Below are positions 4,119 to 62,086 of a DNA stretch of 64,000 nucleotides, piece by piece. The position numbers and the translations under genes were made by a program. The stretch covers positions 641,395-705,394 of the forward strand of contig CBDBUR010000001.1 of assembly GCA_965212115.1 (NCBI GenBank), read 5' to 3'. A model generated the notes under the pieces. That model had not been told where the DNA came from. It saw nothing but the letters and a program-made list of their open reading frames with translations, and did not search any database. The stretch's first letter is position 1, and the number at the start of each line of letters is the position of its first letter. The DNA is from Alphaproteobacteria bacterium. GTDB taxonomy: Bacteria; Pseudomonadota; Alphaproteobacteria; JAPOUT01; G958296285.

Positions 4119-4143
4119 ATCAGCACACAACAACCTAAGAACT

Positions 4144-7100
4144 TTAGTTTGAGGGCACCAGCGGGGTTGCGATACGACACCGGGGGATTACACAGTGGAA
4201 GTCAATATCAAAACTCGCCGCACTCAGCGTCGCGCCGCCGTTGAACACCGGAACAGCACCGCCAGTGTCAATCCCTAAAATGCCGCTCGCTGTCAATGAG
4301 GTCGATAACGACAAACCGCCCGTCACCGCAATAAATAAATTCGTCGCAGACGATGCAGACGATGAACCCGCCTCTAGCGTCAGCATCCGCGCCGAAAGCC
4401 TCACCACATCCGCGCTAAAATCTAAAGCGCCCGACGCATCCAATTCTAAATTATGCACGCCCGCTTCAATGTTCCCATTAACATCAATCATCATGGCATC
4501 CACCATCACACTCCCATTCACCACGCCCCCATCCGTAAAAGTAAAACGCGTCGCACCCGACGCGCCCAGCGTCAACGAACCCGTGCCAAAATTATACGAC
4601 GCCGTCCCACCGCTCGAACTCGACGCAAATATAATGTCCCCAAACACCTCCGTCGATAAACTTAAATCACGATTCAACGCTATCATCCAATCCCGAACCG
4701 TCAGCAATGATGAACGACGCGTCGCAATCGAAACAGCCGCAGTAGACGACAACACAAATGAATCCTCAACCGCAAAATCCTCCGTCTGATCTAAAAATAT
4801 ACTCCCCGCTGTCAATGTCGGTGAACCCGTCGCGCTAATGCCGCCCGAACCCAACTCCGTCACCGATCGACCACGCACAGTCCTCGTGACGTCAATACCC
4901 GCCGTGATCCACAGCACGCTCGACGCGCCGCTTACCGTGATCGCATCGTTGATCGTTACATCTCCACGACCCTCAATCCGCAGATTAACCGTTGACATCA
5001 CAACCTCCGAACCACTGCTATCACTATCGCTCGTCACAATAATATCGTTGCCACGAACAAAACGCTCACCGCTCGCCCCCGTGAACGATAATCCACCCGC
5101 CGCTGACAAAGTCAAATTACCCGTGCCTGTATCAATATTACGCCCGACAACCAAAACACCGCTAGACACAATCTCTACATCAATACCCGAACGAACCATC
5201 CACCCCTCAACCTCCTGCATCCCCGCACCGCTATAATTCACAGCCAGACCTGTCAAACCCCCGCGAAAAATAACAGGCACCGTTCCATCAAAAACTTCCC
5301 CCTGACTAAATGACAGCTCACCCGCCGTTATCGATAACGTCGGCGTCGTCACACCCCGACGCGTCCGCGTCGGAAAATCAAGCGCGCCCGCAGCCGTAAA
5401 AGACACAGAGCCCGAACCCACATTCAGCAGCGCACGAACCATCAAATCGCCCGACGACACAACACGCACCGCTTGATCACTACCACGCCGCGGCGCACGA
5501 CGCGATGTCATAGATACTTCAGCACCACTTAAATCAATCGACCGCGTCGACGAAAACCTCAACTCGCTGCGACTGCCCGACGCCGTTAAAGTTAAATCTC
5601 CCGCCGTTAGCAAACTCGTACCCACCGTCAAATTGCCCGTCGCAATGATCGATACCGCCAAAGTCCCCACACTCGGCTCAAGACGAGTCGTCCCATCAGA
5701 ACCAAACTCGTCCGCTGTCAAAACTACGCTCACACCACGCAACTCCGTCGCCAGCGCCGTCCCTACAGTGATAACTCCAAAATTCTCCTCAACATTCGTC
5801 ACTGCCATCCCGTCCATCATCGTCTCGACCGTCTCCGACGCGCCCGCCTCTAAAGTCAGATTGCCACGACCCGATGTCAGAGGACCATTCAATGTCAAGT
5901 TCCCTCTCGCACGTACGGTCACATTCTCACGACGACGGTGCGTCTCAAGATCCCCAGTACTCCTCAAACTGATGTTCTCTCCGCGCAATGTCCGTGAACC
6001 GCTAAATCTCACCCGATCCGCCGTCAAAACTAAATCACCTGTCGCTTCAATGTTCGTGCCAATCGTGAGATCACCTGACGCTTCAACCGTTAAAGCCTCC
6101 GCCATCACTGCGTTGCCAAGTAAATTAATGCCAGCACCGCCTAATGTCCGCGTCCCCGTCAAAACGACGTCGCCATTATTCGCCAATGTCCGCGTCCGGC
6201 GACCCACACGCGCGCGACGCGTCCCAAAACCCGCCTCCAAACGCAAATTACCCGTCCCAGAATTGAGGTGCGCCCCAATCGTCAGATCAAACGAAGTCCG
6301 TACAACAACATCACCCGCCAAACCCGTCGCTGTCGGCCCATCGCCAAACAACATGATCGTCTCCGCATCCAACTCAACCGTTTCAATGAAATTGATCGTC
6401 CCTGAATTGCTCGTCCCCGAGTCAGGGACATCATAACCCGCTTCAAGAATCAATGAACGACCATTGCTCCGTAAGCCTCGAAGATCCGTCGAAACCAAAA
6501 CAAGATTGCCGCTCACCGATAAATCCCCTGACGCACGAACCACCAAACGCGCGCCTGACACCACCATCCAAGCCCCAACCGGCTGCGACGACGACGACAA
6601 CGCGTTGAATTCAAGCTCCGCAACATTGGGCTCAAAATTAGTAAAATTAGCCGCTTCAAAAGGAAGCATCGAAATTAAGCGCAGCCCCAAGCCAGACATA
6701 ACATTCGAGACGCCATCCCCCGCTACCATGAAACTATTCGCCCTCAAAACAACCGCACGTGATCCCTGACCATCAAAACGCAGCTCCCCTGTCTCTCCCG
6801 CTACCGTGCTCGCGCCTGCCGTCAGCCCCAAAACCCCCGACGTCGATATGTCCGCATTTACTTCTAAATCGCCCTGCGCCGTGATCGTTAAGTTTTGACC
6901 AAACGGCGATGACACCGCTCCATGCGCGTCCAAAATAATATCACCGCCGCTCAATACAAGCGGCGCCGGGCCAGTGAAATTGATCAAACCGGGATTGCGA
7001 ACCTGAACTTCAACCTGCTCACCCATTTCGTTCGTCATCATCATCGCCATCGTGCCCCGTCCAGCCTCAAGCGTTAGGTCCCCTGCGCCAAGCGCAAGCG

Positions 7101-10100
7101 AGCTGCCCACCACCACATTGCCCCGCGCGCGAACCCCTAGACCAGCGTCGCCCGAAGACGTCGCCAACGTCACCATCCAATCATGAACCGTCTGATCCGA
7201 AGTCGATGTCGTCACAAACTCTATCTGACCAACAGACGTCGTCGTCGTCGTCTTAAATGGATTCGTCGCCGAAGCCGCCGCCCAAACACTCGACGACACC
7301 AATCGCAATGTCTGACCGCTCGACGCCGCTGGCGATGATGTCGCCGTCAAGCTCAACGCCCCTCCAGTCAAAACCGTCAGACGCGATGAATTGAAATTGA
7401 TCGCACCCGCCGACGCCGTCAGACTTATATTGTTCGAACCCGCATTAATATCGCTGTTGACATTTACATCGCCCGTCAAAGCCGTGATCGAAACCACCCC
7501 GGCGCTCTGCTCAGGCGCTAAATCACCCGTCAATGTCACACTCGACCCGCTCAATGTCCGCGCCCCCGTCAACGTCAACGCGCCATCATTCGCTACACTG
7601 CGCGTCCGACCGCGAACACGAACACGACGCGTCCCAAAGCCCGCTTCCAAAGTCAGCGCTCCATCTCCTGTTAGATCAGCACCAACCGTTAGATCGCCTC
7701 GCGCTCTGATCCTCAACGCAAAACCGCTCGGCGATGACGCCCGCGTCGAAAGCAACGTCACTTCCGAACCCTCCAGCGCGCGAACCATATCTGCGTCCAC
7801 CGTCCCAAAAGTGATCGCACCCGTGCCCCCATTATAGCCCGCTTCCAAAATTAAACCCCGTCCATAGATCAAATCATTCGCTACAACAACATCGCCCGCG
7901 CCGCGAACCGCTAGCGCTGATCCCGAAGAATTCGCTCGCGATACCATCCACGCCTGAACCCCCTGCGCCGCTGTCGCCGTCGTGATGAACTCCAGCTGGC
8001 CAACATTCGTGGCAACATTAAATGGATCAGACGCCACTGCCTCTTCCCATACCGTCGCGCGACGCAGCCCAACTCCTCGACCCTCTACACTCGGCCGACG
8101 ATCAGCCGTCAGCTCCAGCGCCGAGCCCGTCAACGTCACCAGGCGATCAGGACTGAAACGAATCTGACCCGAACGCGCCGAACGCGTCGCCGTCCCTGCC
8201 GTCAAGCTCAAGGCCCCCGCGCCCGCATCAATATCGGCATGGACAAGCAAGTTGCCCCCTGCCGTGATCGTTAAATCTTGACCAAACGGGGCCGGTGCCT
8301 TCACGCCGCCATCAACAGCTAAACCAGCCGTCAAGGACACATCATTGCCGATCAATGTCAGCGCCGATGATCCCGTGAAATTAATCGCCCCTGACCCATC
8401 CCCCATGCCCGCCTCCAACGTCAGGTTGCGCGCAGACGCCAGCTCAATCGATACACCAACATTTACATCGCCCACGGCGCGAATAATTAAATGCTGCGCG
8501 CTCACCGCTGATACCATCCAAGGCTGAACAACTAATGCCGACGAGGACGTCGAAACCAATTCCAACGTCCCCCCAGAGGGCAACGTCACAACACCAAAGC
8601 GATTGCTCGTCACAAACACCGACGCCTGCGCTAAGCTGATACGACCCGCCGAAAGCGACGAACCCGGCGCCGAAGAACTCAAAACCTCGCCAATGCCCGC
8701 CGTCAAAACCAAATTGCCGCGCAAAACACTCCGCCGAGAAACACGCCGAACTAGATTAAGCGCCGCGCTCACCTGCAATGTCCCCAATGCCGTGATCGTC
8801 AAAGAACGACCACTGCCCGCTTCCGCCGATGCCTCCGCAATCGTCGTCACATTCGAAGTTAACGCGATATTCGTGCCTCTCAAACTCGTCGTCCGGCTCC
8901 TCCCAAAACTAATCGCGCCGCCGGTCGTGCTCACCATCAAATTCCCCGCGCCTACATCTATGCTCGTGGCAATCGAAACAGCCCCTGTCCCTGTCACAGT
9001 CAAATCTTGGCCGCTCGGCTGATCCAACAAATCACGCGACGAGGTCAGCGAAATCGCCGCCCCTGACAAGGACGACGCCTGATCTGACGACCACATAATC
9101 CGACCTGTTCTCCGCCGCGCCGAGGCCGAAAGCGTTAAATCGCCCGCACCCGCATTGACACGCGCCCCAATCGTCAGATCTCCCGACAAAGCCCTGATCG
9201 TAATGTCAAAATTGTTGATGCCTGCCGCTGGCGTCGCCGCTCCTTTATCTGACAGCAAATTCACATTGTTTCCCTCTAAACGGCGCGTCTCGCCAGTCGC
9301 CGCCATGAAGTTTAGCGCTCCCGTCGTGCTGCCATCACCGGCAACCAAAACCAAATCACGCCCTCCAAGCACAACGTCGCGATCCACCACCAGATCTCCG
9401 CCCGTGCGCACCGTCAAATGACGACGCCTGGAAGTCCGACGATCGCTCACCAAAGACACCATCCACTCGTGCAGCGTCTGCGACGCGCTCGACGCCGATA
9501 TAAACTCAACCCCGCCGGTGTTCAGCCTAATATTCATGAAAGGATTGCTCGCGCCAAAACCTGCCGCCTGCCTCAAACGCAACGTCCCAACCGAAAGAAC
9601 CGTGTTCGAACCTTCGATCGTATTGCTGCCGGCGCTTAAATCTAAAGTGCCGCGACCCAAATTTAAATTGGCTGACAAGGTCATCGTCCCCGACGCCACA
9701 ATCGTCAAATTACCATTGCTGCCGCGACCCGGCAAAGCGCCATCCGATGTCAGAATAATATCAGCTCCGCTCAAAACCGCGCCGCTGCCAAAACTGAGAA
9801 CGCCCGTCTCGCGCGTGCCTGTCCCCGCTCCAGCCTCAAGCATCAAATTGCCGCTGCCCGCATTCATATGCGTGTTCACTCGTAAACCGCGCAGCGCCAC
9901 AACTCTCAACAAAGCATCGCTCGCCGAAGGCATCTCAACTGCGCCCGCTTCATCACGAACCGTGTCACCGGTTAAAGTGATGACATCCCCGGTCAAGAGA
10001 CGCGCCCCTGCAAAATTGATCACACCAATATTCCCAACACGGCGACGACCAACACGCGTCGTCCCCGTGCCTGCTGTCAAAACCAAATCTCCTGTCCCCG

Positions 10101-12308
10101 TATCGAGGTCAACCCCCACTTCAATATCGCCGAGCGCGATTACGCGCAAACGCCGACCGCTCGCAGGCGACGCCGCTCCGCCTTGCAGCTGAACATCATC
10201 TCCGCGAACCTCTACATCTCGCGCCGTGCTCAGCAAGATCGTCCCGCCTGCCGTCAAAACTACATCCCCCGTACCCGCGTTTAAGTGCGCCGCTAACGTT
10301 AAATCTCCCGAAGCCTCAACTGTCAAATCCTGATTGCTCGCCGCAGGCAGCGCTCCGCGACGCGGATCCGCACTCAACTCTATCATCGCACCCGTCAAAC
10401 GCGTCGCCGCATCCCGGCGCAGCTGCAAAACACCCATGTCGCGGCTGCCCAAACCCGCGCCCGCTGACAAAACTAGATCCCCGCTCGTCAATATATCCGT
10501 GCTCACACTCAATCCGCGACGCGCCACAACACTCACCGACTCCGTGCTCGCGCGAGATGTGCCGCCCGCATCCCCGATCAACACGATGTTCAAACCATTG
10601 AGAACCGTCTCAACAGAATCCCCCGCGCTCGAAACACCCAAATACAGCGAACCCGCATTCACCTGCGTCGTGCGGCCCACGCGCGTGTTCAAACCTCCGA
10701 TCAAAGTCAAACTCCCCGTCCCCGCATTCAAATGACCCAGAACCGTCAGATCATTGCGCGCCCGAACCGTCAATGAGCGGTTCGACGCCGATGCCGGCGC
10801 ACCGCGACCCGTCAACATGATCTCCCCGCCATTCACAACCCGCGTCGCGCCGCCAAATACCAATGTCGCGCCGCTCAAAGCAACCTGACCTGTCCCTGCA
10901 TTGACGCTCGCATCAATCCGCAAATCGCCCGTCGCCGCAATCGTCAAATCACGACCGCCCGTCGTGATCGTCCCCGATGATACCAACGTAATGTCAGCGC
11001 CGACAAAACGATCCGCTGCCGTCTCTAGAATGATCAACCGACGCCGCGACGCCGCTCTCAACGTCAAAGACCCAGCTCCTAGGTCAATCGCCGCGTCCAA
11101 AATAATGTTGCCTCCTGTAGATTCCAGCCACAATGACCGATCCATAACTGACCCCATCCACGCATAATAACGCTGGTTGCCTGTCGCAATCACACGAAGC
11201 TCTCCAGACACAAAACTCGCCGGCTGTTGATCTGTAAACAGCGATCCATCCTGACGCACAATAATCTGATCTGCCGCCATCACTCGATCGCCGGCTACTT
11301 CTATTGTCCGCGCGCGCAGCGAAAGAACTGAACTCATCTCATCTCCAGACATCGAACCCAAACGCAGATCCGAACTGATCTCCAGATTGGTAAACGCCCG
11401 GATCGTCAAATTATGCGACCCCGCCATGCTCACCGACGCATCCCCGTCGCTTTCAAAAATGATGTTCCTGCCCGTCAGTTCAACCGGCGCGCTCGTCGCA
11501 AACGACAGCCCTCCAACACCCACGCTCGACGCCACACCCGCGCGCAACGTCAAAACGCCCGCGCGGCTGCGCGACGTGCTCGCGCCCGTGTGCAAAGACG
11601 CATTGACAACCAAATCCCTCTGCGCTGAAACCGTCAATGACTGACGACCCGCCCGAGGCAACGACGACGACGTCAGCATGATGTTATCGCCTGACAATTG
11701 CGTCGCCCTATTCGTCCTAAACTGCAGCGCACCCCCTGAGGCCAACGTCAGATCCCCAGCAGCGCCGGTATCTATGTTCGTGTTGATGGTCAAATTACCC
11801 GTGGCCGTGACCGTCAAAGCCTGATTGCTCGCCGTCGGGTTAGCCCCACCGGTCAAAGTGATCACAGAACCGCTCAACACCACCGCACCATTGCGAACTG
11901 TCGTGTCAGAGGCTGTGCCGCCGCCAAAATTTAAAGCACCCCCAGCGATTAAGCTCAGATTGCCTTCCCCAGTGCCAAAACTGCCGGTCAAGGTCAAGCC
12001 GCCGCGCGCACGGATCAACGCCGCGCCCATATTATCGCTCGCTAGATCCACCGCGCCCGCCGTCAGCCTGACGACACCTCCGTTCAACGTGATCGAACGC
12101 TGCGCATCAAAGTCTATCCCGCCGACCGCCGCCAATGTCAAATTGCCCGCCCGAGTGTCAAGACGCCCTCGGCTGTCAAGGCCAATGCTCGTGTTTAGGA
12201 GAATATTACCTGTCGCTGTCAACGTCACAGCGCGGCGGTTCGTCGAAATGCCGCCGCGTGAACCCGTCGTCAACGTGATGTCCGCTGCTAAAATCTCCGT
12301 CGCCGCAG
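4144..12308 (-). repeat. copy A of a ~8.2 kb near-identical direct repeat (3' end of gene 1), paired with 53949-62086
   Basis: Track ORFs on the mirror strand match copy B at a constant offset of 49,778 nt. ORFs 6464, 7391, 7982, 8603, 9155, 9418, 9518, 10334, 11387 and 11413 are letter-for-letter identical to 56242, 57169, 57760, 58381, 58933, 59196, 59296, 60112, 61165 and 61191. Scattered substitutions occur near both ends of the repeat. A 9-bp indel and different C-terminal tails shift the offset to 49,805 nt at the stop codons. Confidence 0.85.
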
Positions 12309-15300
12309 ACCCAAACACAATATTGTTCCCCTCTAAAACTAAAGACCGAGACCCAACAGCCACACTCTCAGCAGAAACCACAACACTGCGATTGACTGAA
12401 ACTACCCGAACAATAAACGAACTCGAGTCGCTTGACACAGGCGCAAGAAGTGTCGCATGCAAAGTCTGATTGCTCGTCCCTGTCGAAATGAACGAAACTC
12501 CAGCGCGCGCCGATAACACCGCCCCTAGTGCTCCACTGCCAAAAGACGCCTGCTGGCGCAACGTGATCATACCACCGCTCAGCGTCAGCGTAGCCCCAGG
12601 CGTCGAGGCTGTAAACATGATCGCGCCACGACGCGACGTTAGAGACAAAGAACCCGTCCCAACATCAATGTTGCCTGTAATCGTCAGGCTGTCTGCCGCA
12701 AACGTCAGATCATAATTGTTCGCGCTCGTATCAAGTGCACCCAAAGTCAGAGCCTCAAGACTCCCCGCCACTAAACCCGCGCTGCCCGTGTAAGTCGGAA
12801 CCACACCCCCCAACGTCAAAGCGCCGCGACCTACATCAATGAGCGCGCCAAGATTGAGCGTCGCAACCGAAAGCGTCAGATCCGCGTCGCTCGGCTCCGG
12901 CGCTGCGTTCGCTACAAGCGTCAACGCCGCCGCCGTCAAAGTCGTCGGGCGCGATGAATTGAAATTGATCGATCCTTCATTGTTTGTCCCTGATCCCGCC
13001 GTCAACGCCAAATCACCCGTCCCAACATTAATATCAGTGTTGATGTTCAAATCCCCCGAAGCCGTCACCGTTAAAGCGTTGTTGCTCACCGTCGGTGCCG
13101 CATCCCCCGTCAACGTGATCGCACCACCGATTAAACTCGAGGCCGTACTCACCGTCGCATCAAAATTGACCACACCTGTATCATTGCCATTACCCGCCTC
13201 CAACGTCACAGCCCCCGAACCAAAATCTCGCGCTCCGCTCAAGGTCACATCACCCGCCGCGCGCAATACAAAATCAGAGCCCGAACTCGTCGCCAAAGTC
13301 GGCATCCAGGCTTGTACCGCCTGCGATCCGCTCGCCGTCGTGATGAACTCAAGATCACTCGCCGACGTCGACGCATGACCAACAAAAGGACTGCTCGAGC
13401 CAAACAAAATGCCTGACATCAATGTCAGACTCTGCGCACGCGACGCTGGGGCTGTGTCCGATGTCAATGTCAGCGCACCGCCTGAAGTCAGCACCACCGC
13501 GCGCGACGCATCAAACTCGATCGCACCCGTCGTCGTCCCCATGCCTGCCGTGAGCGCAAGCGTCGCCGCGCTCAAGTTCGTGTTGAGGTTGATCGCGCCG
13601 CTCGCCGTCAGCGTGAGCCCCCGCGTCCCCAGATTAACCGTCGCAACCGCCGTGTTCGTCAACGTGATCGACGACGCTGTGATCGTCGTCGACGCGCCGG
13701 TCGCAAATGTGATGTTCCGATTGCGCGTACGACGATTGGTGTTTTGTCCTGCAACCAACTCAAGCGCTCCCGTGCCAAAATCAAGCGCGCTCGCAGCCAC
13801 ATTCAGCTGACCCCCAACCTCCAGCGACAAACCCCGACCCAAAACCACCATCCACGCAAGCAAATCTTGTCGGCTGCGACCACCATACAATAAACTCAAA
13901 GAGCCTACCGTTAAAGTCGACGCCGGAGACCGCACAAAAGGCTGATCCGACATGAACTCTAAACTCAGCGCTGTCAACGTGCGGCCGCTGCCAAAATTCG
14001 TGTTCCTATTACTTTCAAAATTCACCGTGCGCAATGACAACACTCCGCCCGCTCGACCAACATTAATGTCTGCGTCGATCAACAAAGCGCGGCGCGCACG
14101 GATCGCCACCATGATCGCTTCGCTCGGCGCTGTCGGCTGACCCACAGCAAGCAAAGAAACATTGTTCGCGTCTATGCTCGTCGCGCCCGTGAAGTTGATC
14201 GAACCGCCTGCAAAAACCACCGGCGTCGTCGTCGCGGCCGCTGGTGCGCTCAAAGTGAGATTATGGCGGCTTGGATTGCCAGCAACAAAATCCCCGCTAA
14301 GCGACAAAGCTCCGACCGTCGCTGTCAGACGCAGGTTGCGATTGAAACTCACACTCTGCGCGCTGATCGAAAGTACTCCCGCCGAAATAACTCCCAGCGC
14401 GCCGCCCAAAGTCAGCTCTCCATCTGCCATGATCGTCAGCGCGCGAGATCCAATAGACACGCTGCCCGCGATGATCGAAATCTCCGACGCTTCTATCACA
14501 ATCTCTCCGTCGCCCGCAAAAGACAAAACACCCGAACCCGCATTTAACTCAATCCTCTCACTCGCGCGAAGCTCCGAAGGCGCCACAAATGATCCCCCAG
14601 GAATCAGCGCAATCTCTTCTGCTATCAAATCAACCAGCTCAAACCAAGCGTGATCAGTCTGGTCAGCTTCGCCCCTATAAAAAACAAGCGGCAGAACATC
14701 GGTAGGAAGCGTGAAAGTCGCCGGCGCGCTCGGGCCAAAGAGAGCTTGCTGCTGTATCAAAAGAACCTGCGCCGCTTCGATCTCCACCCCGGAGCGGAAA
14801 GCAATGGCAGTGTCACCTCCCCCTTCAAGAGTGAGTTCGCCGTCACCGATGGCAATGTCATCCACAGTCAAATCGTTCGCCGCAGTAATCGTGAGGTTGG
14901 CACCATCGCTTCTCGTGATCGCACTGGTGATGGTAATGTCGGTGGCGCGCAACTGACGGACAGCGCCGATGATCTCAATGAAGGTGCCGCTTACCGCCGC
15001 CGATAAGGTGAGATCGCCGTCGCCGAGATCTATATCGCCATTGATCTTTATCGTGCTGTTATTTGCAGGCGTAGTCGCATCCACAGCGCCATCAACCACG
15101 ATGACCAGATTTGCCGCCGTCGTCGTCGTGATGTCACCGGTGAGATCAACCCGATCGGCAGATAATGTCACCGTCGCTGCCACCAGCGAGGAGGAAGTCC
15201 CTGTCATCGGCGCGGTGAGCACGACCCTCCTGCCGCCCAAAGTGATGACGCCTGCGCTTCTCGTGAGGTTGCCCCCAACCATAATCGGGCAACTCGCGCA

Positions 15301-18300
15301 GGTGATGCTCAAATCGCTCGTCAAAGGCGCATTGGCGATATCATTATTCGTTGACAGCCAAGCCTGAACCTCCTGCGCCGCAGTGACGCTCAAAACCAAA
15401 GCTATGTCTAAAGCTATGTCCAAATTGCCAAAATTGAACAGCCGCGCAGAACCAAACGCACCCGACGTTTGCGTGAAGGTTAAACTCGCGGCAGTTAAAG
15501 TCGGAACATTGCCGTCGGCATTATCAGAATCCAAATCCGTAGTGGTGATGGTGCCCGCCGTCGCCTCAATGACGATGCTCTGCCCCGCATAGGTGATCGC
15601 GTTGGCGGCCAGAGACACCGCCGCGCCCGAAAGTGTGATCGCGCTCGTGCCGCTCAACGCGATCGTCGGTGCCGACAAAGCAACGCCCTGCTCGCCCGCC
15701 ATGATATTATCGCTCAGCGTGATCGACGCCGCGCTCGTCAGACTCAAACCGAGACCATCAACTAACATCCACGCATAAACCATCTGTGCCGCTTGGGTAT
15801 CCAAGATCAGCGAGTTCGTCGCCGCGCCAAGTGTAAATACGTCGAAGGCAAAAACCGCATTCTGCTCAAGCGTGATCACACTGCCAGAAAGCTCGCGCGT
15901 CGTGCCCCCATTGCTAATGACGCCGCATGCTGAAGCGCTATCACTGCCGCAGGTCGAGACCGTGGCGCGTGCCCTCATCACCAGCGCGCCAGCGCCAACA
16001 TCCACATTGCCTGCCAAAGTCAAAAGGCCTTCCGTCGCTTCCAAAGTAAGATCACCGCCCTCAACGGTTGTGATTCTTGGAGCATTCAGCGTCAACGTTT
16101 TGGCCTTTATCGAAGGCGCTACACCAATGACCATCAAATTCGCAGCCGAGATCCGCAAAGCGCCGCCCGCGCTACCGGAAATGTCGAGAGCAGAGTCAAG
16201 CCTCATCGTGAGCCTAGCTCCTTGCGCGATGATCTCTAAGCCGGGGTTGTTGCCCAAATTAATCGCGCCCGCGTTAATCGTGATCGCCGCCGAGCTCAGA
16301 ATGATGTTCGTGTTGCCGTCGCCGTCGGCGAAAGTCAACGTGCGAGAACCAACATCAAGAATGATGCTGTCTTTTGTTTCAATCAGCACGTCCACATTAG
16401 GATTATCTTCAGGATGGGTATAGGTGGCGGATAGTATGGTGAGATCGTGAAACCATGCTCGCTCAGCGATGTCACCCAAAGCGCGACCAGTGACAACAGG
16501 CAATCTGCCCGCATTTAGGATAAACGTCGCCGGCCCCGGGTCTTCAACAAAAGCGCTGCGATCCTGCGCTAGATTCGCCGCAAACGCCGTCACCGTGATA
16601 TTGCTGCCCCATATGATGTCGCCGGTTGATACTCCTGTTGCGTCATCAAATCCGGCCTCAAGCACAAGCGCGGCGTTGCCAACATCATTGCTGTCATCAA
16701 TATCGCCATCATCAGCGACAAGAGATATATTGCCACCGATCGTCAGATCACCACGCGCGCGCGCAATCAGTTTTTTGCCCAGCGTGCTTTTGAGCGCAGA
16801 CATAAAATTGATGTTGTCGGCCTGCACAGTAAAAAGATTTACAGTGTTGGAAATATCATCCATCAAAGCGATGGGCGCTGTGCCGTTCACATCTAGAACG
16901 AGATCGCCGCTGCCGATGTCAAAGCTATTGGTGATCAAGATTCTCCGATTGCTCGTAATGCTCAAATCGCGGTTCACTGCGATCATCCAATTATAGATTC
17001 CTTGGAAGCCGCTGTTCGGGATAGTTGTGGCAGTGAAACTCACAAAATCAACAGCAGCCGCGAAGTTAAACAGGATGTCAGAGCCAAACGCATTATCTTG
17101 CGAAAGGCTTATTGTGCTGGCAAGCAGCGTCGGCGCGACAAAGTCGTCCGTCACAGGAAAAGGCGCGCCGTTTGAGATATTGTCATCATCGCAACTATCT
17201 GGACCAGTGCAGCCCGTCAGAATGCCCGCCGTGAGCGTGAGATCGCCCCGCTGCATCGTTGTGCCGCCGCCGCCGCCATCTTCCATCGAAAACTCCGCGA
17301 CCGTGACGCTGCCACTAACGGTCAAATCTCTCGAGGCGTTCACGACGAGACTGCCGCCATTGACAGTCGTTTCGCCGCTGATGGTGATGTTTTGCCCAGT
17401 GATCGTGAGCGTCCGGTCTGCGGCATCCACAGAAACATTGATGTTGATCGTGCTCGTCATCAGCGAAACATCTCCGGTGTTGGCGGCGTTGAGGTCGGTG
17501 TTAATTGTGGCGCTTAACCCAATTATGATGGAGTTCCTGTCCGAAACGACCATCCAAGCAGGATAAATCGTCTGGTCGACGCGCGCGTTCAATTGCAAAG
17601 TGCTCACATCCGTAAATGCCGTCGCCGGAGACGCGGCGGTAAACGCGCTATCTTGCGCGAGAGTTATTTTCCTTGCAGTGAGCACACCAATTTGACTGCC
17701 AATGCCGCCCACATTCAACATGATATTGCCGGTATTAACTATTGGATTGTTGCCATCGTCCATCGTATCAACGCCGGCTTCCAGCGTTAAATCTGTGTCG
17801 GGGGCCGTCATGCCATCATCCCTAAGAGTTATGAAAACGACGCTGCTCTCAAAGATCAAATTGCCTTTGGCGCGGATGGTTAAATTTCTATTTGCGGCAC
17901 CAGAAAAATCAATTGCGCCGCCCTTAAACCTAATTTCACCGCCTTCCAATATGATCGTGTCAGCAATGCCACTGCTTGCGCTTGAAATGAAGCCAGCACC
18001 AAAATCTACCATAGCATTTAGGGTGATATCGCCATTGCCATTATCCAACATCTCGCCACCCTCATGAGCAAGCTCAATAGAGCCGACCATATTGGTGAGG
18101 GTTAAATCTCTGCCTGTGCCACCATTTGCGTTTTTATCCAACATCCACAGCCAGACCCTCTGACTGAGGCTTTCTGTCACATTAATCTTCAAAGTCTTCA
18201 CATTGCTGGAAAAATTAGGCCCGCCGTCTTTCCCAAAGCCGCTGCTATTATTCGTCAAAGTGATGTTATCGGCAGAGAGCATGGCAGAATCAGCAAAAAT

Positions 18301-21300
18301 GAAATCGTTGGCCGACATAAGAAACATAAGACCATCACCGCTCGTCCCAACATTTATGCTGCCGTTCAAGGTAATCTCATCCTTCGTTTCAATGGCGAGG
18401 CTGCTGTCAGAGACCGCAGGCGCGTTGAGCATGAAATCGCCCGCCATGATCTTGATGAGCGCCACATCAGCACGCGTTTCATCTTTGCCTTTAAACACGA
18501 TCGAGCGCATCTCGCTCGCCGTGTTCGTGTTTGACAAGATTAAACCACCGCTGCCGAAATCAATGACGCCATCGGCGAACAAAGTGGCGTCAAGAGTGAT
18601 GACGCTGCTGGAGCTGTCCGCGGTGTTGATGATCAAACCCCTGCCTGCCGCGACCATCCAAGTCTGAAGCGTCTGTGCGGTGATACTCGCGGGGAGATCA
18701 ATTTGCAGACCGCTGGCTTCAAGAGTGAATGGGAAAAAAGAGGTGAACGCCATACTCTGCTCGATGATGATGTCTTCTGCGATCAAGGTGGGCGTTGCAT
18801 CGGAAGCGAAACTGCTCCCGGCCTTCAAAAGAAGAGCGGTGTCTGCAGCGCGAGCAAACGAGACATCGTCGTTGATTTTGATCGCATTGGCGCTTGAAAG
18901 CGAAATCATCGCAATGGCGGAAGTCGCAGAGATGTCGCCCGTGATCGTGATCGCCTTGCCTACAAACGAGACGCTAGAACCCGATAACGCATCAAGTCTA
19001 ATGCCCCCCGGCGCCGACAAGGTTAGGTCGGAAGAGGTGAATCCGATATCGCTCGCCGAAACCGCCATGATCCTGAGCGCGTGGCTGGCAATGGTGCTGT
19101 CAACTTCCAGCGTGAGGTTGCGGTTCGCAACCACCATCCAGTCTTGAAGGGTTTGCGCCGAGTCTGTCTTAAGGCTCAAATCGGAGGTCATCAACACAAA
19201 GAGCTGGTCGCTGCCAAAAACGAGATCCTGCGAAAGGGTGATCTCGCTTGCGGTCAAGGTTCGCTGTGTGCCGCTGTTTTTGATGCTGCATGACTCAGTG
19301 CCGCTGCCGCAGGTTCTGGCTTCCGCCATGATTACGAGCGCATTCGCACCGACATTGGCATTGCTCATCAAATTGACATCTCCGGCTTTGGCCTCCAAAG
19401 TGAGGTTGATGTCAGCGTCTGTGATTTCATCCGTCTCAGTATTCGTGTTGATGGTGGTGATCATGCCTGCGATCAAAGTAAGCTCCGCGCCCGACAAAGC
19501 GCGATTTCCACTGCCGGTAAAATTAATCGTGCCGCTCGCGCCAGTGTTAATGATGAGATCGCTACTAACATTGAGGTCAGCGTTAAGCGTGATCGTGCCC
19601 CCGCTCGCCTGTATCGTCAAGGAGCTGCCGCCCGTGCGCGCAAAGGCGACCATCCCTGCCATGATCGAGATGGTCGGCGCATCCAAAGTAATCGCAGCGA
19701 GGTCAGGGAAAGTGAGCGTCCCTGCGCCGACGTCCAACGTAATGCTATCTATGCGACTTAGCGCACCGTTGAGAAAAAGCCCGCTGGGCAGATCGTAATT
19801 TTGATCGACTCTGTTGAGGCTGCCAGAGATCGTCGGCTCGTTCGCGCCGATCGCGGGGATAACATAAAAGCCCGGTGGCGGCACGATAAGCCAAATTCGT
19901 GTCATGGCGTCGGTCGGACCCACATGGCTCACAGCTTGTGGCAGAGGGGCATCCGCTGACGCAATCACAAAAGTCGCCGGCCCCAAAGGCGCACTAGCTC
20001 TGTCGGGAGCAAAAGGCATATTCTGCGCCAGTTCCACCGAAAACGCTGTGACCGTGACACTCGGCGTTGTCGGGTTGATTTTTGGCATATCATCATCGCT
20101 ATCGGCCCATAAGATGTCGCCGCCTGCAATGTTGTCGGAGTCGGCCACAAGCCGGAGCTTGTTAGTCGCGCCGCTGCCGATGTTTATATTGCCATGAATC
20201 GTCAAATTGCCGCGTGCAGAGATCGTCACGGGAATGTTGAAAGGATTGTTGAAAGCGCCCTTCAAATCGATGTTTCCAGCACTCATGGTAAAGCTGGTTA
20301 GAGGGGTGTTGCCGGGAAACTGTAACAGCCCGATGACCCTATTGATGTTGCTCACCTCCAAAGTGAGGTTGCCACTGCCGATATCAATTTCCGAAAGTGT
20401 CATAACAATCGATGGTCCAATAAAGAAGGCGCCAGTTTCGCTCTTGATTGTCAAACTGCGATCCCTTTCAATCATCCACGGTCGGACGAATATCGCGGCG
20501 TTCGTGACAGTGAAGCTTACGAGATCAACTTCAGCACCGAAGTCAAACACACGGGACTCATTATAATTGTCAGCTTGCGAGAGAAAAATTGAAGCGGCGC
20601 TCAGCGTCGGCGTGACACTCACAATATCGACAAGCTTGCCATTGTTATCCCTGTCCTTGTCCGCCGTGAGCGTGAGATTACCCTTCTTCGTTATCATATT
20701 GTTGCTGTTATCGGGGTCAGACATGATGAAATCTTCAACCGTGATGTTGCCATAGACTGAGATGTCATTAGCGGCCTCCACGACAAAGCTACCGCCGTTC
20801 ACCGTGATCGTGCCATCACGCGACATGCCGCTACCCTCCAGCGAGTGGCCAAAAATGAGTTCTCCCATGCTGCTGATCGTGAGCGTGTTGTCAGCGGCGT
20901 CAGCAGGGACCATGACGTTGATTTCATCAATGTGCAGCTGCGTCAGAACGGGATTGACGAAGGCGAGGTCCGCATTGATGGTGGTGCTTGGCGCGGATAT
21001 GACCAAAGCTGAGATCGGAAAAGTCAGCCAATCAGTATGGATTATCTGGTCAGAACCTGCAAGCAAGCCAAGTGAATATGTGGACGTTCCGATCCTAGAG
21101 GTGATTGTGCTGGCAAACGCGCCGGGCTGAACGAGTAGCACAAATATCCCAGTGAGCGTCACACTGCCCAGCATGAAATTGCCTTCTCCGCTCCCCTCGC
21201 CCGCTTCCAGAATTAAAAAATTGGCCGCTTCAGTGTTGAGCGTTATATTACTGTTGATGGTCAAATTGCCTTTGGCCTTGATGGATAGACTTTTTCTGCC

Positions 21301-24300
21301 GCTATTTTTATCCGTGCTGCCGCTCTCATCAAGCACACCCGTGAGCGTGATCGCGCCGCCGGACATAACACTCATCTCGCCATCGCTGTTATTTCCATCT
21401 AAAGAGAGCGTGGCGGCGTTTAAGGTGATATCGCCCATGCCATTATCAAGAGGAGCGGTGTCAATATGAGAAATGGAAATGGAACCGCCCTCATTGTTGA
21501 GAACGATATCTCTATCGTTTGAACCGTCGCGCATCATCCAGCCATGAAGCCTCTGATTTTCATCGCTGCTCGTGATTGTCAGCGTCAGACTTGTCACCGA
21601 TGCGGCGAACATTACAGGCGCGGGGCTCTCAAATGTGGCACGCTGCGACAAAACGAGTTCACCGGCGGTGAGCAGGGCGCTACTGCCAAATCCAACTCTG
21701 CTGATCTCATCACCATGGCTGTCAGCGATCAGCGTGAGCCGATGCGCGCCGACATTGGCAGTGTTGATATCTATTTCTCCCGAAACCTGGATGGTGAGAT
21801 CTCCTGTGACGGCTGTTATTGATGCCCCGCTGCCGATTTGAAGTGATGCTTCCACGCTTGCCGAACCTAAAAAGATTTCACGAGCGCCGCCGGTGAATTC
21901 GAGCTGGCTGTTATTCCCTGAAGTGGGCAGCAAAACTAAAGAGCTTGCAGACATAATATCGCGCTCAATGACCAGTTTAGAATTATTACGCGCCATATTT
22001 AGAGCAAGGCCGCTAACATCACCATTTGTCATCCATGGATGGAGCGTTTGCGCGGCAACATCAGCGTTTAAGTTAATCGTTAAACTCGGCTTTGATCCTA
22101 CTCCTTCTCTTGCAAAGGCGAACGGGAAAGGATTTACCGCATCATCTTTGGCGGTGAACGCCTGCCCCTGCCGCAGAGTGATTTCATCTGCGGTCAAAGT
22201 GACGGAGCTCATGCTAGAGAGAATACGCCCGCCCCCACTCGTATGCGTTCGCAACACAATGGAAGACGCATCACTGCCATCAGCGCTGCCCATATTGATG
22301 TTGCCATTGATGACAATATCAAAGCCATTATTAAGCTCCGATCCGAGAGCGAGGTCGATTCCGCTTAAGCCTTCAGCCGCGGAGATGTTGCTATTGATTG
22401 TGAGTCCAGCGTTGGCAACTATGGCTTGATCTCCGTTGATAGAAACTCCTCCCATCCTGCCCTCCAAAATGAGCGCTTTTTGGATGTAGAAAGAAGCATG
22501 GAAATTCAATGCCCCTCCCTCGCTGATTAAAGAGAGATTGCTGCTCAAATCATTGACATCCACAACTACCGACGTATTAATCTCGATGGAAGCGTTAACG
22601 GCGGTAAGCGTCGTATTTGCCGCGCTGTCAACCATCATCCACCGATGAAGAGGCTGCCCGCCCGCCGCCTGCGATGTGAGCGTTCTCAGATTCAACTGAG
22701 TGACGGTGCTGTCGTTATCGGTGAAGTCGAAATGCTGTTCGGCAATAAACTGGCGTCGCTGCGAAAGTGTAACCATTCTAGCAATCAAAGTGTGAGACCC
22801 TGATGAGCCAGAAGAATTCTCATAATCTTGATTTCTGATGCGGCACAAGCCGGTGGAGCTGGATAGAGACGGACAATTCGTGCTGTTCTCTTTCTCCGCT
22901 ACAACCGCAAGCGCGTTCGTGCCGACATCGACATCGCTGTTCAAATTGATGTCGCCTGTGAGGGCAATCAAAAAGAGATCTTGGTCAGCGGTGGTCTGGC
23001 TCGCGTCCAGCGTAAGCTCGCCGCCCGCCTGCAAAGTGTAAGCGCCGCCGCCGCCTGTAAAAACGACCGTCCCCGCACCCGCATCGACAATGAGATCACC
23101 AGAAGCCTCAATGCTCGCATTGAGCGTCAGCGTCAGTACGCCGCCGCTCGAAGTGAGCGTCAGTGAATCGTTAGATGATGGAATCGTGATTGTCCCTGCC
23201 CTGATGGTGATGGTCGGTGCGTCCAGCGTTATCGACGTCAGATCAGGGAAGGTCAGTGTCCCTGTGCCGACATCTAACGTGATGCTCGATGAACGCTCCA
23301 GCAGACCATTTTCAAAACTGGCCGCCGGAATCGTGTAGTCTGCGTTTGTGCCGGGTCTTTCGGCTGTGTTATCAGCGGGCGTGCTATAGGTGAGCGGCGC
23401 GGGATCGTCAAACCATGTTTGCGTCGCGGGATCGAGACTCGTTGCGCCGCGACCGTGAGGCCTCGCACTCCCCGACAGGATGAACGTCGCCGGACCCGGA
23501 TCGCTTGCTAAGGCCGAGCCATCCTGCGACAGACTCACCGACAGCGCCTTCACCGTGACCGTCGGCATTGCTGGCATTGTGCTTGCGGTGGCGTCCGTAG
23601 CGCCATCGGCCCAGAGGATGTCGCCGGTGCTGTCATCGCCGTGCCCTGCACTGAGCCTCAGCGCTGCATTCCCGACATCTAATTCATCAACAAGCAATAT
23701 ATCGCCGCCGATCGTCAAATCGCCGCGGGCGACGATCTCAACAGGAATGTCGGCAGTGCTTTTGAAAGCGCCGAGCAAATTGATGTTGCCAGCACTCAAA
23801 GTGAGGCTGGCGGGCAGAGCGGTGTCAGCGTTAGGGGAAAGAATTTTGATGAAAAAATTTTTCACCTCCAAAGTGAAATCACGGCTGCCGAGATCAATGT
23901 CAAAGTAAATGCCAATGGCTGAGCTTGTAATTTTCAAGTTGAAATTTCCTTCAAGCATCCAAGAATTAATGAACATGCTGCTTTCGGTGGTTAAGTGCAA
24001 TAGATCAGCATTTTGAAAGTTAAACTCACGTTCATCAAAATCTCCATCTTGTGAGAGAAAAATTGAAGCGGCGCTTAGCGTCGGCATGGTGGCGGCGATT
24101 GCGCGAATATCATGGTTGGTGTCATCATCCGCACCCGCCGTGAGCGTCAGAGCACCGCCATCATTGACCGTGATGTCGCTAATGACTTCGATGGTTTCGT
24201 TGGCCTCTACGACGAGGCTGCCATTATTTACGATGATCGTGCCATCTCGATCGTTGAAGAATTGCGTGCCACCAGTAAAGAGCTCGCCGCCAAATCGGAT

Positions 24301-59900: not shown

Positions 59901-62086
59901 AATATCGCCGAGCGCGATTACGCGCAAACGCCGACCGCTCGCAGGCGACGCCGCTCCGCCTTGCAGCTGAACATCATCTCCGCGAACCTCTACATCTCGC
60001 GCCGTGCTCAGCAAGATCGTCCCGCCTGCCGTCAAAACTACATCCCCCGTACCCGCGTTTAAGTGCGCCGCTAACGTTAAATCTCCCGAAGCCTCAACTG
60101 TCAAATCCTGATTGCTCGCCGCAGGCAGCGCTCCGCGACGCGGATCCGCGCTCAACTCTATCATCGCACCCGTCAAACGCGTCGCCGCATCCCGGCGCAG
60201 CTGCAAAACACCCATGTCGCGGCTGCCCAAACCCGCGCCCGCTGACAAAACTAGATCCCCGCTCGTCAATATATCCGTGCTCACACTCAATCCGCGACGC
60301 GCCACAACACTCACCGACTCCGTGCTCGCGCGAGATGTGCCGCCCGCATCCCCGATCAACACGATGTTCAAACCATTGAGAACCGTCTCAACAGAATCCC
60401 CCGCGCTCGAAACACCCAAATACAGCGAACCCGCATTCACCTGCGTCGTGCGTCCCACGCGCGTGTTCAAACCTCCGATCAAAGTCAAACTCCCCGTCCC
60501 CGCATTCAAATGACCCAGAACCGTCAGATCATTGCGCGCCCGAACCGTCAATGAGCGGTTCGACGCCGATGCCGGCGCACCGCGACCCGTCAACATGATC
60601 TCCCCGCCATTCACAACCCGCGTCGCGCCGCCAAATACCAATGTCGCGCCGCTCAAAGCAACCTGACCTGTCCCTGCATTGACGCTCGCATCAATCCGCA
60701 AATCGCCCGTCGCCGCAATCGTCAAATCACGACCGCCCGTCGTGATCGTCCCCGATGATACCAACGTAATGTCCGCGCCGACAAAACGATCCGCTGCCGT
60801 CTCTAGAATGATCAACCGACGCCGCGACGCCGCTCTCAACGTCAAAGACCCAGCTCCTAGGTCAATCGCCGCGTCCAAAATAATGTTGCCACTTCTAGAT
60901 TCCAGCCACAATGACCGATCCGCGACTGACCCCATCCACGCATAATAACGCTGGTTGCCTGTCGCAATCACACGAAGCTCTCCAGACACAAAACTCGCCG
61001 GCTGTTGATCTGTAAACAGCGATCCATCCTGACGCACAATAATCTGATCTGCCGCCATCACTCGATCGCCGGCTACTTCTATTGTCCGCGCGCGCAGCGA
61101 AAGAACTGAACTCATCTCATCTCCAGACATCGAACCCAAACGCAGATCCGAACTGATCTCCAGATTGGTAAACGCCCGGATCGTCAAATTATGCGACCCC
61201 GCCATGCTCACCGACGCATCCCCGTCGCTTTCAAAAATGATGTTCCTGCCCGTCAGTTCAACCGGCGCGCTCGTCGCAAACGACAGCCCTCCAACACCCA
61301 CGCTCGACGCCACACCCGCGCGCAACGTCAAAACGCCCGCGCGGCTGCGCGACGTGCTCGCGCCCGTGTGCAAAGACGCATTGACAACCAAATCCCTCTG
61401 CGCTGAAACCGTCAATGACTGACGACCCGCCCGAGGCAACGACGACGACGTCAGCATGATGTTATCGCCTGACAATTGCGTCGCCCTATTCGTCCTAAAC
61501 TGCAGCGCACCCCCTGAGGCCAACGTCAGATCCCCAGCAGCGCCGGTATCTATGTTCGTGTTGATGGTCAAATTACCCGTGGCCGTGACCGTCAAAGCCT
61601 GATTGCTCGCCGTCGGGTTAGCCCCACCGGTCAAAGTGATCACAGAACCGCTCAACACCACCGCACCATTGCGAGATGTCGTGTCAGAGGCTGTGCCGCC
61701 GCCAAAATTTAAAGCACCCCCAGCGATTAAGCTCAGATTGCCTTCCCCAGTGCCAAAACTGCCGGTCAAGGTCAAGCCGCCGCGCGCACGGATCACCGCC
61801 GTGCCCATATTATCGCTCGCTAGATCCACCGCGCCCGCCGTCAGCCTGACGACACCCCCATTCAACGTGATCGAACGCTGCGCATCAAAGTCTATCCCGC
61901 CGACCGCCGCCAATGTCAAATTGCCCGCCCGAGCATCAAGACGCCCTCGGCTGTCAAGGCCAATGCTCGTGTTCAGGAGAATATTACCTGTCGCTGTCAA
62001 CGTCACAGCGCGGCGGTTCGTCGAAATGCCGCCGCGTGAACCCGTCGTCAACGTGATGTCCGCTGCTAAAATCTCCGTCGCCGCAT
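53949..62086 (-). repeat. copy B of the ~8.2 kb near-identical direct repeat (3' end of gene 3)
   Basis: See copy A. The identity boundary on the mirror strand is at about 62086, where track ORF 61603..62223 diverges from ORF 11825..12469 after 161 identical or near-identical residues. Confidence 0.85.

What the first reader, a model, noticed from the sequence alone, without database searches (positions are those of the whole stretch)
4144..12308. 8.2 kb near-identical direct repeat shared by the 3' ends of gene 1 and gene 3 (49,778 nt apart)
Mirror-strand track ORFs from ~6460 to ~11650 are letter-identical to their partners at +49,778 (for example 9518..10192 equals 59296..59970 over 224 aa). 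Substitutions cluster near the two edges. Examples are 4838 versus 54616 with at least 6 aa changes, and 10901 versus 60679. An identity gradient of ~97% at the ends and ~100% in the centre is the signature of recent gene conversion between paralogs, not of ancient duplication. The shared segment encodes the last ~2,700 aa of each protein, so two different giant proteins present the same C-terminal module.
Basis: seen in the sequence. Interest (0 to 1): 0.75.

Follow-up and report, generated by a model that had tools for sequence, protein, structure and literature searches.

The report
Shared tail of giant adhesin genes
Two neighbouring giant secreted-fibre genes of an uncultured bacterium carry an almost identical 8.1 kb 3' end, best explained by repeated copying between gene copies (gene conversion); this process is well known, and the example is large but ordinary.

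Summary
The repeat is real. Window 4193-12307 matches 53980-62085 at 99.14% over 8,115 columns. Weaker homology runs on to both stop codons (4144 and 53949). All indels are in frame.

It forms the last ~2,720 codons of two of three tandem minus-strand giant genes: g1 (8,607 aa), g2 (7,821 aa) and g3 (more than 3,349 aa in the window). These are two-partner-secretion (TpsA) beta-helix proteins.

Differences are strongly non-uniform. dS is 0.23 in the last 75 codons, 0.0045 in the centre and 0.016 at the 5' edge. Identical runs of 2,157 and 1,907 bp exceed every one of 200,000 simulations.

The 5' boundary is abrupt, with 99% identity falling to about 30% amino-acid identity. g2 resembles g3 equally on both sides of the boundary, but resembles g1 only inside the repeat. 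The module therefore belongs to the g2/g3 lineage, and g1 is a chimera.

Contigs from a public metagenome assembly reproduce both junctions independently. They also place the module in a third context and show mutually incompatible site patterns.

Verdict: ectopic recombination, mainly gene conversion, among giant TpsA paralogs. This is a large instance of a known process. Interest is moderate to low.

The parts
4144..12307 (-). Repeat copy A: the 3' end of giant gene g1, codons 5887-8607 plus the stop codon.
   Evidence: BLASTN 99.14% to copy B; position-by-position differences; codon-level comparison.
53949..62085 (-). Repeat copy B: the 3' end of giant gene g3, window codons 638-3349 plus the stop codon.
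   Evidence: This part of g3 is 100% identical to public protein P0122.
4144..29967 (-). Gene g1, 8,607 aa: a giant TpsA-type exoprotein. It is a chimera of a g1-specific 5' 17.6 kb and the shared 3' module.
   Evidence: ORF list. Pfam TPS domain PF05860 at aa 38-280, E = 7e-18. g1-g2 identity jumps from 27% to 48% at the module boundary.
29128..29856 (-). TPS secretion domain of g1.
   Evidence: Pfam PF05860, 65.8 bits against a cutoff of 33.5.
30102..53567 (-). Gene g2, 7,821 aa: a giant TpsA paralog that serves as the outgroup for the module. It is 48% identical to the module and 44% identical to g3 upstream of the boundary.
   Evidence: TPS domain at aa 32-269. Identical to public protein P0123.
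53949..64000 (-). Gene g3, 3' 3,349 codons; the 5' end lies beyond the window. The public record of this ORF (P0122, 4,937 aa) starts inside the shaft and has no TPS domain.
12296..12320 (-). Upstream (gene-sense 5') recombination junction in g1. Identity with g3 ends after ...GTCGCCGCA at 12307. The junction lies in a motif shared by all three paralogs (IVF-x-x-A-T-x-I).
   Evidence: Sequence reads; protein alignment.
62074..62098 (-). The same junction in g3. Here g3 stays collinear with g2 across the boundary.
5804..10371 (-). Homogenised core, containing two perfectly identical runs (5804-7960 and 8465-10371). dS is 0.0045 over 6001-11000.
4144..5150 (-). Divergent 3' tip. It holds 48 of the 74 substitutions and three in-frame indels: a 9-bp tandem-duplication difference at 4346-4354, 3 bp at 4185-4187, and about 9 bp at 4157-4165. 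dS is 0.084 overall and 0.23 in the last 75 codons.
4177..4212 (-). Conserved C-terminal motif FDIDFHC-x4-C of g1. These are the only two cysteines in the module.
   Evidence: The motif [FY]D.[DNS]F.Cx4C is found at the C-terminus of at least 9 family members.
53967..53999 (-). The same motif in g3. One residue is deleted inside the loop, giving C-x3-C.

Best explanation
The window holds three tandem, same-strand giant genes (g3, g2, g1) of one lineage-specific family of two-partner-secretion (type Vb) TpsA exoproteins. Each has an N-terminal TPS secretion domain followed by thousands of residues of degenerate beta-helix repeats. Each ends in a conserved FD-x-x-F-x-C-x4-C tail.

The 8.1 kb repeat is the 3' third of g1 and the 3' end of g3. 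The most likely history has two steps.

1. An ectopic homologous-recombination event joined a g3-type 3' end (about 2,720 codons) onto an unrelated g1-type 5' part. The join lies at a short motif conserved among the repeats (window 12307 / 62085).

2. Since then the copies have kept exchanging sequence. This is presumably RecA-dependent, non-reciprocal gene conversion, with tracts from tens of bp to several kb. At least one further module-bearing gene takes part. The interior has been homogenised to 99.9% identity. The edges are reached less often by conversion tracts, and other, more diverged paralogs can also donate there, so they keep older and patchier differences.

Functionally, the module is the far end of a right-handed beta-helix fibre plus a small C-terminal disulfide loop. 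By analogy with HMW1 and HxuA, that loop would keep the fibre tethered to its TpsB pore.

Shown: the repeat, its limits, its heterogeneous divergence, the family assignment, the chimeric origin of g1 and the beta-helix prediction. Inferred: RecA-type conversion as the mechanism, a tethering role for the Cys loop, and an adhesin or surface-fibre function.
For: - Repeat and limits.
- Both copies stay open reading frames and every indel is a multiple of 3.
- Family: Pfam TPS domain in g1 and g2. An exhaustive HMMER search finds 63 relatives, many of 2,000-7,800 aa, sharing the C-terminal Cys motif.
- Heterogeneous age: dS is 0.23, 0.046, 0.014, 0.0045 and 0.016 along the repeat. Chi-square p = 1e-38, and identical runs exceed all 200,000 simulations.
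- Direction: amino-acid identity upstream of the boundary versus inside the module is 43.8% vs 48.4% for g2-g3 (continuous), 27.1% vs 48.3% for g1-g2 (a jump), and 33.8% vs 98.7% for g1-g3 (local alignment).
- Independent copies: contig L045 carries the g1-type junction and P0185 carries the g3-type junction.
- Third context: L045 and L046 place the module upstream of a different TPS gene (P0002 type) instead of lepA.
- Incompatible site patterns among the four copies: 8 sites group g1 with L045, and 3 sites group g1 with P0185.
- Between the strain versions of g3, differences pile up at the same two edges of the module. Forty of the 43 amino-acid differences lie in two zones covering 13% of the protein.
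- A second mosaic in the same family: g2 and P0124, on the same 711-kb contig, are 100% identical over aa ~190-620 and about 28% identical elsewhere.
- The tethering role of C-terminal disulfide loops in HMW1 and HxuA is described in review PMC5422565.
Against: - With only four copies, most shared states also fit a simple tree. Only 3 sites are strictly incompatible, and recurrent mutation could explain them.
- The strain-variant contigs have low coverage (5x and 9x) and carry single-base indel errors, so a consensus mixing reads from paralogs cannot be excluded.
- No donor inside the window was found for the multi-nucleotide patches.
- No TpsB gene lies in the window.
- The recorded g3 ORF lacks a TPS domain, so 'two secreted proteins with the same tail' is not proven.
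- Function as an adhesin or tethered fibre rests on fold and motif analogy only. Foldseek gave no significant match, and the module has no Pfam or PDB sequence match.
Confidence: 0.75

Rival explanations
1. One recent event only. A single segmental duplication or 3'-end replacement copied 8.1 kb from g3 into g1. Later divergence was uneven because the tips are under relaxed or diversifying selection. No ongoing conversion is involved.
For: There is a single sharp 5' junction. dN/dS is higher at the tips (0.43-0.63) than in the centre (0.08). Most four-copy site patterns fit a tree.
Against: Synonymous divergence itself differs about 50-fold between tip and centre, and selection on protein sequence does not explain that. 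Identical runs are longer than chance allows. Three sites are incompatible with the tree. Strain-to-strain differences in g3 cluster at the module edges. At minimum, an older and a younger event are needed.
Confidence: 0.13
2. Assembly or polishing artefact. The true genome has one copy, or two more diverged copies whose interior was homogenised because reads could not be assigned to a copy.
For: Divergence is concentrated within about 1 kb of the unique flanks, as ambiguous read placement would predict. No reads were available to check this.
Against: The copies differ at 61 substitutions and 3 in-frame indels, and both remain open. Seven substitutions lie deep in the core between 7961 and 10996. 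Both junctions recur on separate contigs with their own variants. Contig names in the related assembly suggest a long-read assembler (inference from 'ctgN_25x_c' naming), and such reads would span 8 kb.
Confidence: 0.05
3. Silent-cassette system. g3 has lost its TPS domain and is not expressed as a secreted protein. It serves instead as a giant archival donor that rewrites the 3' end of expressed genes such as g1, in the manner of pilS/pilE or the tpsC cassettes of Neisseria.
For: The recorded g3 ORF (P0122) starts inside the shaft and has no TPS domain. The strain variant P0185 reads 1,396 aa further upstream and still shows no TPS domain. Recombination at the 3' end of tpsA with cassettes is documented in Neisseria (PMC3848433).
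Against: g3 keeps a 4,937-codon open frame, and dN/dS in the core is low. g3 lies upstream of g1, not downstream, and is of the same size class. The start of g3 is outside the window, and long genes in this data set are often split by single frame changes. No toxin or immunity pair is present.
Confidence: 0.07

Closest known systems
TpsA exoproteins of two-partner (type Vb) secretion: FHA/FhaB, HMW1/HMW2, HxuA, EtpA
   Different: These genes are 2-4 times longer than FHA. The shaft and module match no Pfam repeat family, including the Fil_haemagg repeats. No tpsB gene is adjacent in the window. Three to four giant paralogs lie on one contig. The Cys loop is only 4 residues, and its homology to the HMW1 anchor is not shown.
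Recombinational exchange of the 3' end of tpsA/cdiA with downstream cassettes (Neisseria meningitidis tpsA-tpsC; orphan cdiA-CT modules)
   Same: Homologous recombination replaces the 3' end of a TpsA gene with that of a related copy nearby. The junction lies in conserved sequence (PMC3848433).
   Different: In those systems the exchanged unit is a toxin domain of roughly a few hundred residues (size from my own knowledge) plus its immunity gene, following a VENN-type motif. Here it is 8.1 kb of beta-helix shaft with no VENN motif, no toxin domain and no immunity ORF. Both partners are giant genes.
Concerted evolution by interlocus gene conversion in bacterial paralogs (e.g. tuf genes, rRNA operons, surface-protein families; hmw1A/hmw2A in Haemophilus is cited from my own knowledge, not checked here)
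   Same: A tract is far more similar than its flanks. dS is heterogeneous, identical runs are long, and variation is patchy. General theory is reviewed in PMC3924837 and PMC3966223, which were listed but not read.
   Different: The tract is unusually long, lies inside internally repetitive giant genes, and occurs in an uncultured lineage. It involves at least three gene contexts.

Membership tests
TpsA (two-partner secretion, type Vb) exoprotein | N-terminal TPS secretion domain (PF05860) after a signal peptide. | tested here: met
   g1 aa 38-280, 65.8 bits; g2 aa 32-269, 68 bits; cutoff 33.5. Hydrophobic leaders precede ...APQGG / MPQGG. For g3 the 5' end is off the window, and the recorded ORF P0122 has no TPS domain.
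TpsA (two-partner secretion, type Vb) exoprotein | A cognate TpsB (Omp85-type) transporter gene, usually adjacent. | tested here: not met
   The only other genes in the 64 kb window are pheT and lepA. A TpsB may lie upstream of g3 beyond the window or elsewhere in the genome. This could not be tested.
TpsA (two-partner secretion, type Vb) exoprotein | Right-handed parallel beta-helix passenger. | tested here: met
CdiA (contact-dependent inhibition toxin) | VENN or other pretoxin motif followed by a variable C-terminal toxin domain. | tested here: not met
   No VENN or (Q/E)LYN motif in g1, g2 or g3. No Pfam domain in the C-terminal 2,751 aa. The C-terminal 450 aa model as a continuous beta-helix.
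CdiA (contact-dependent inhibition toxin) | A small immunity gene immediately downstream. | tested here: not met
   The g1 stop codon lies 50 bp from the convergent lepA stop codon. The 381-bp g3-g2 spacer has no open frame of note.
HMW1/HxuA-type surface-tethered TpsA | An extreme C-terminal disulfide-bonded loop that locks the protein in the TpsB pore. | tested here: inconclusive
   A Cys pair is conserved within the last 10-20 residues in at least 9 family members (Cx4C; Cx3C in g3). Its role is known for HMW1 and HxuA (PMC5422565). No sequence homology to those anchors was shown, and no experiment exists.
Interlocus gene conversion / concerted evolution | A tract of near-identity bounded by much more diverged but homologous flanks. 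| tested here: met
   Amino-acid identity is 98.7% inside the tract and 33.8% upstream of it. The break falls within a few bases of 12307 / 62085.
Interlocus gene conversion / concerted evolution | Heterogeneous silent divergence and identical runs longer than chance allows. | tested here: met
   dS ranges from 0.0045 to 0.23. Chi-square p = 1e-38. No simulation out of 200,000 reached the observed run length.
Interlocus gene conversion / concerted evolution | Variants shared across loci, or phylogenetic incompatibility among copies. | tested here: inconclusive
   Eight sites support g1+L045 | g3+P0185 and 3 sites support g1+P0185 | g3+L045. Both are present, but the numbers are small and the variant contigs have low coverage.
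Neisseria-type tpsA/tpsC cassette exchange | 5'-truncated silent cassettes, each with its own immunity ORF, downstream of the expressed tpsA. | tested here: not met
   There are no short cassettes and no intervening ORFs. The partner copy is a giant gene upstream in the array. The 5' status of g3 is unresolved.

The most novel reading that the evidence does not exclude
g3 may be a TPS-less, non-secreted archival copy. The family would then run a cassette system on an 8-kb scale. Giant silent donors would rewrite the distal two to three thousand residues of expressed surface fibres, giving population-level variation of a cell-surface structure. The host is an uncultured bacterium that may have a small genome (its relatives sit on 1.6-1.9 Mb contigs). 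The module also occurs in a third gene context, which would fit such a shuffling system.
Probability: 0.08. Interest if true: 0.6.

Novelty: new member of a known kind. Interest (0 to 1): 0.33.

Why it matters
The finding shows how giant, internally repetitive surface-protein genes evolve in an uncultured lineage. Blocks of several kilobases are swapped and homogenised between paralogs, so 'different' giant proteins can present the same distal module. For annotation, it warns that such genes are mosaics. Orthology, copy number and assembly correctness cannot be assumed from any one segment. It does not reveal a new mechanism, and the function of the proteins remains inferred.

Tried and rejected
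- A search for the source or close relatives through PheT in GTDB genomes gave only chance pattern hits at 36% identity or less.
- An exact look-up of LepA found no contig on record, probably because the source is withheld.
- The word-indexed protein search with the C-terminal 1,000 aa returned one weak hit. I treat this null as uninformative. In the later TPS search every listed hit was 1,225 aa or shorter, and known fragments (P0138, P0184) were missed.
- An exact look-up of g1 with five alternative starts found nothing. The GTG/TTG starts were not converted to Met, so this is also uninformative.
- A search inside the window for donors of the multi-nucleotide patches, using 14-mers, found none.
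- Pfam on the module and on the antisense ORFs gave nothing. A PDB sequence search gave nothing. Foldseek against PDB gave nothing significant.
- Rfam found no RNA family in the window.
- Tandem Repeats Finder found only three trivial arrays.
- Compositional skew is strong in the module, but it declines gradually past the boundary in g1, so it does not mark the junction.
- CDI toxin reading rejected: no VENN motif, no toxin domain and no immunity ORF.
- I first read the mixture of g1-type and g3-type states in L045 and P0185 as direct proof of conversion. I downgraded this, because a three-taxon tree without recombination also produces such mixtures. Only the four-copy incompatibility test and the clustering of states carry weight.
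Full report
**Layout of the window**

The plus strand carries the 3' part of pheT (113-2293) and lepA (2294-4093), both with full sets of Pfam domains. The rest of the window is filled by three huge minus-strand ORFs:
- g1, 4144-29967, 8,607 aa;
- g2, 30102-53567, 7,821 aa;
- g3, from 53949 to beyond 63998, more than 3,349 aa.

g1 and g2 begin with a signal-peptide-like leader and a TPS secretion domain (PF05860, 66 and 68 bits against a cutoff of 33.5). No other Pfam family matches anywhere in them.

The proteins are rich in G, A, S, T and L and almost free of K and C. They are built from degenerate repeats. g1 aa ~1000-4700 includes three super-repeats of about 1,200 aa at 35-50% identity.

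**The observation**

The repeat is real. Window 4193-12307 matches 53980-62085 at 99.14% over 8,115 columns, with 61 mismatches. Weaker homology extends to both stop codons.

There are three indels, all in frame:
- a 9-bp tandem-duplication difference at 4346-4354;
- 3 bp at 4185-4187, inside the Cys loop;
- about 9 bp at the very end.

At codon level there are 31 synonymous and 36 non-synonymous codon differences.

Differences are strongly clustered. Forty-eight of the 74 substitutions lie in the 3' kilobase, 18 in the 5' two kilobases and 8 in the central 5 kb. Chi-square gives p = 1e-38. The identical runs of 2,157 and 1,907 bp exceed the maximum of 1,567 bp found in 200,000 random placements.

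Nei-Gojobori dS falls and then rises along the repeat:

| Zone | dS |
|---|---|
| last 75 codons | 0.23 |
| 4401-5200 | 0.046 |
| 5201-6000 | 0.014 |
| 6001-11000 | 0.0045 |
| 11001-12305 | 0.016 |

**The boundary and the direction of transfer**

In gene sense, the upstream limit is abrupt. Identity ends after ...GTCGCCGCA at 12307 / 62085. This lies inside a motif, IVF-x-x-A-T-x-I, shared by all three paralogs.

I used the public record of g3 to extend the comparison 2,226 aa upstream. This record is P0122, and its last 3,349 aa are 100% identical to the window. Amino-acid identities on either side of the boundary are:

| Pair | Upstream | Inside module |
|---|---|---|
| g2-g3 | 43.8% | 48.4% |
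| g1-g2 | 27.1% | 48.3% |
| g1-g3 | 33.8% | 98.7% |

g2 and g3 are therefore collinear relatives across the boundary, and g1 is related to them at this level only inside the module. The module belongs to the g2/g3 lineage, and g1 is a chimera that acquired it.

**Related sequences**

The word-indexed protein search was uninformative for this query. The exhaustive HMMER search with the last 1,200 aa of g1 found 63 relatives. They include g3 (P0122), g2 (P0123, an exact match) and further giant proteins of 3,300-7,700 aa. Their tails all end in [FY]D-x-[DNS]-F-x-C-x4-C.

Cluster look-ups place LepA, g2, g3 and another giant paralog, P0124, on one 711,217-bp contig held by NCBI and ENA. P0124 is 100% identical to g2 over aa ~190-620 and about 28% identical elsewhere. 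Block sharing is therefore a general habit of this family.

The nearest named LepA relatives are Alphaproteobacteria at 66-68% identity. Unnamed relatives at 75-88% sit on contigs of 1.6-1.9 Mb. The host is thus an uncultured, poorly sampled lineage. The GTDB scan with PheT found no close relative.

**Strain-variant copies**

Two proteins led to contigs of ENA assembly ERZ25070185.

- L045 (19 kb contig, 5x coverage) matches g1 from 14525 down through the junction and the whole module at 99.3%. It ends differently. After a g3-like tail there is a 130-bp spacer and then the start of a P0002-type TPS gene, not lepA.
- L046 (9x coverage) confirms that arrangement.
- P0185 (6,333 aa) is the strain version of g3. 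It has the g3-type upstream flank, with 216 of 234 differing residues matching g3 and none matching g1.

Both junction types therefore exist on independent contigs, and the module occurs in at least three gene contexts.

At the sites where g1 and g3 differ, L045 and P0185 each carry a mixture of the two states, arranged in runs. On reflection, a simple three-branch tree also produces such mixtures, so I used the four-copy patterns instead. Eight sites group g1 with L045 and 3 sites group g1 with P0185, and these two groupings cannot both fit one tree. This is real but modest evidence.

There is also evidence from the two strain versions of g3. Forty of their 43 amino-acid differences lie in two zones at the edges of the module (aa 1900-2363 and 4768-4937). 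Three lie in the remaining ~4,300 residues. The same edges are thus variable both between paralogs and between strains, while the core is uniform everywhere.

**Mechanism**

The simplest account is ectopic homologous recombination. A founding event joined a g3-type 3' end to a g1-type 5' part at a conserved repeat motif. Repeated non-reciprocal conversion among module-bearing paralogs followed. Conversion keeps the interior near-identical, while the edges retain older and patchy differences.

The tight multi-nucleotide patches look like short templated tracts:
- 6 changes in 34 bp at 11113-11146;
- 7 changes in 25 bp at 4320-4344;
- 10 changes in 23 bp at 4170-4192;
- a patch private to L045 at 10296-10342.

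No donor for these patches lies in the window.

A single event with uneven selection cannot explain a 50-fold range in dS. An assembly artefact is unlikely for three reasons. The copies differ at 61 substitutions and 3 in-frame indels, seven of the substitutions lie deep in the core, and both junctions recur elsewhere. Only reads could settle the point.

**What the module is**

The module contains only two cysteines, which form the terminal C-x4-C pair (C-x3-C in g3). In HMW1 and HxuA, a C-terminal disulfide loop locks the protein in its TpsB pore (PMC5422565). A similar tethering role here is an analogy, not a result.

The proteins are not CdiA toxins. They have no VENN motif, no toxin domain and no immunity ORF.

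**Open points**

No tpsB gene lies in the window.

The recorded g3 ORF starts inside the shaft and has no TPS domain. The strain variant reads 1,396 aa further upstream, also without a TPS domain. g3 may be split, truncated or simply mis-called. Long genes in these assemblies are often broken by single frame changes. This leaves room for a silent-donor reading, which I rate as unlikely.

**Comparison and verdict**

Exchange of tpsA 3' ends by recombination is documented in Neisseria (PMC3848433), and concerted evolution of paralogs is textbook. Three things are unusual here: the size of the tract, the giant genes involved and the obscure host. The finding is a correct observation with an essentially correct interpretation. 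It is a new member of a known kind.

Noticed in passing
window 52401-53503 vs 28783-29882; protein P0124 (off window, same 711-kb contig): The 5' (TPS) ends of g1 and g2 are 76% identical at DNA level. Another giant paralog, P0124 (7,703 aa), is 100% identical to g2 over aa ~190-620 but about 28% identical elsewhere. This is a second block-sharing event, at the opposite end of the gene.
   Followed up: partly
beyond window end (g3 5' part); proteins P0122, P0185: The public record of g3 (4,937 aa) starts at a Met inside the beta-helix shaft and has no TPS domain. A strain variant reads 1,396 aa further upstream, still without a TPS domain. g3 may be split, truncated or mis-called.
   Followed up: partly
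L045 10,352-11,105; L046 1-2,769: On two metagenome contigs the module-bearing gene, which has a g1-type upstream flank, is followed after about 130 bp by a P0002-type TPS gene instead of lepA. This is a third genomic context for the module. P0002 itself sits on a different, 1.1-Mb contig.
   Followed up: partly
window 15,900-27,000 (g1 aa ~1000-4700): Three successive super-repeats of about 1,170-1,210 aa, at 35-50% identity, lie inside g1. These are ancient internal duplications of the shaft.
   Followed up: no
g1 aa 552-4893 (window ~15,290-28,310): Nearly all cysteines of g1 occur in close pairs (Cx2C to Cx9C, ten pairs). This suggests small disulfide-stapled loops spaced along the fibre. 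The module has only the terminal pair.
   Followed up: no
window 4001-16000 and 54001-64000: GC skew (-0.27 to -0.35) and AT skew (+0.15 to +0.22) are much stronger in the module than in the rest of g1 (about 0) or in g2. In g1 the skew fades gradually past the repeat boundary.
   Followed up: no
window 4346-4363: The 9-bp indel between the copies is a tandem duplication of GCAGACGAT in g1 (one copy in g3), typical of replication slippage. A database fragment of g1's tail (P0138) carries a 1-base frameshift just upstream of it.
   Followed up: partly
window 2290-2296; 4093-4146: The pheT stop codon abuts the lepA start codon (2293/2294). lepA and g1 converge with only 50 bp between their stop codons, and the scan found no terminator-like hairpin there.
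   Followed up: no
L044 12,700-12,800: In a related 1.6-Mb circular contig (25x coverage), a 911-aa TPS ORF runs into the next ORF of more than 3,544 aa through a frame change at one spot. The cause could be a sequencing error, pseudogenisation or recoding. A DsbD-like gene lies just upstream.
   Followed up: no
window 2294-4093 (lepA): The closest named LepA relatives are only 66-68% identical (Alphaproteobacteria such as Parvibaculum, Parvularcula and Microbaculum). Unnamed relatives at 75-88% sit on 1.6-1.9 Mb contigs. The host appears to be a poorly sampled lineage, possibly with a small genome, that devotes several percent of its DNA to these giant genes.
   Followed up: partly
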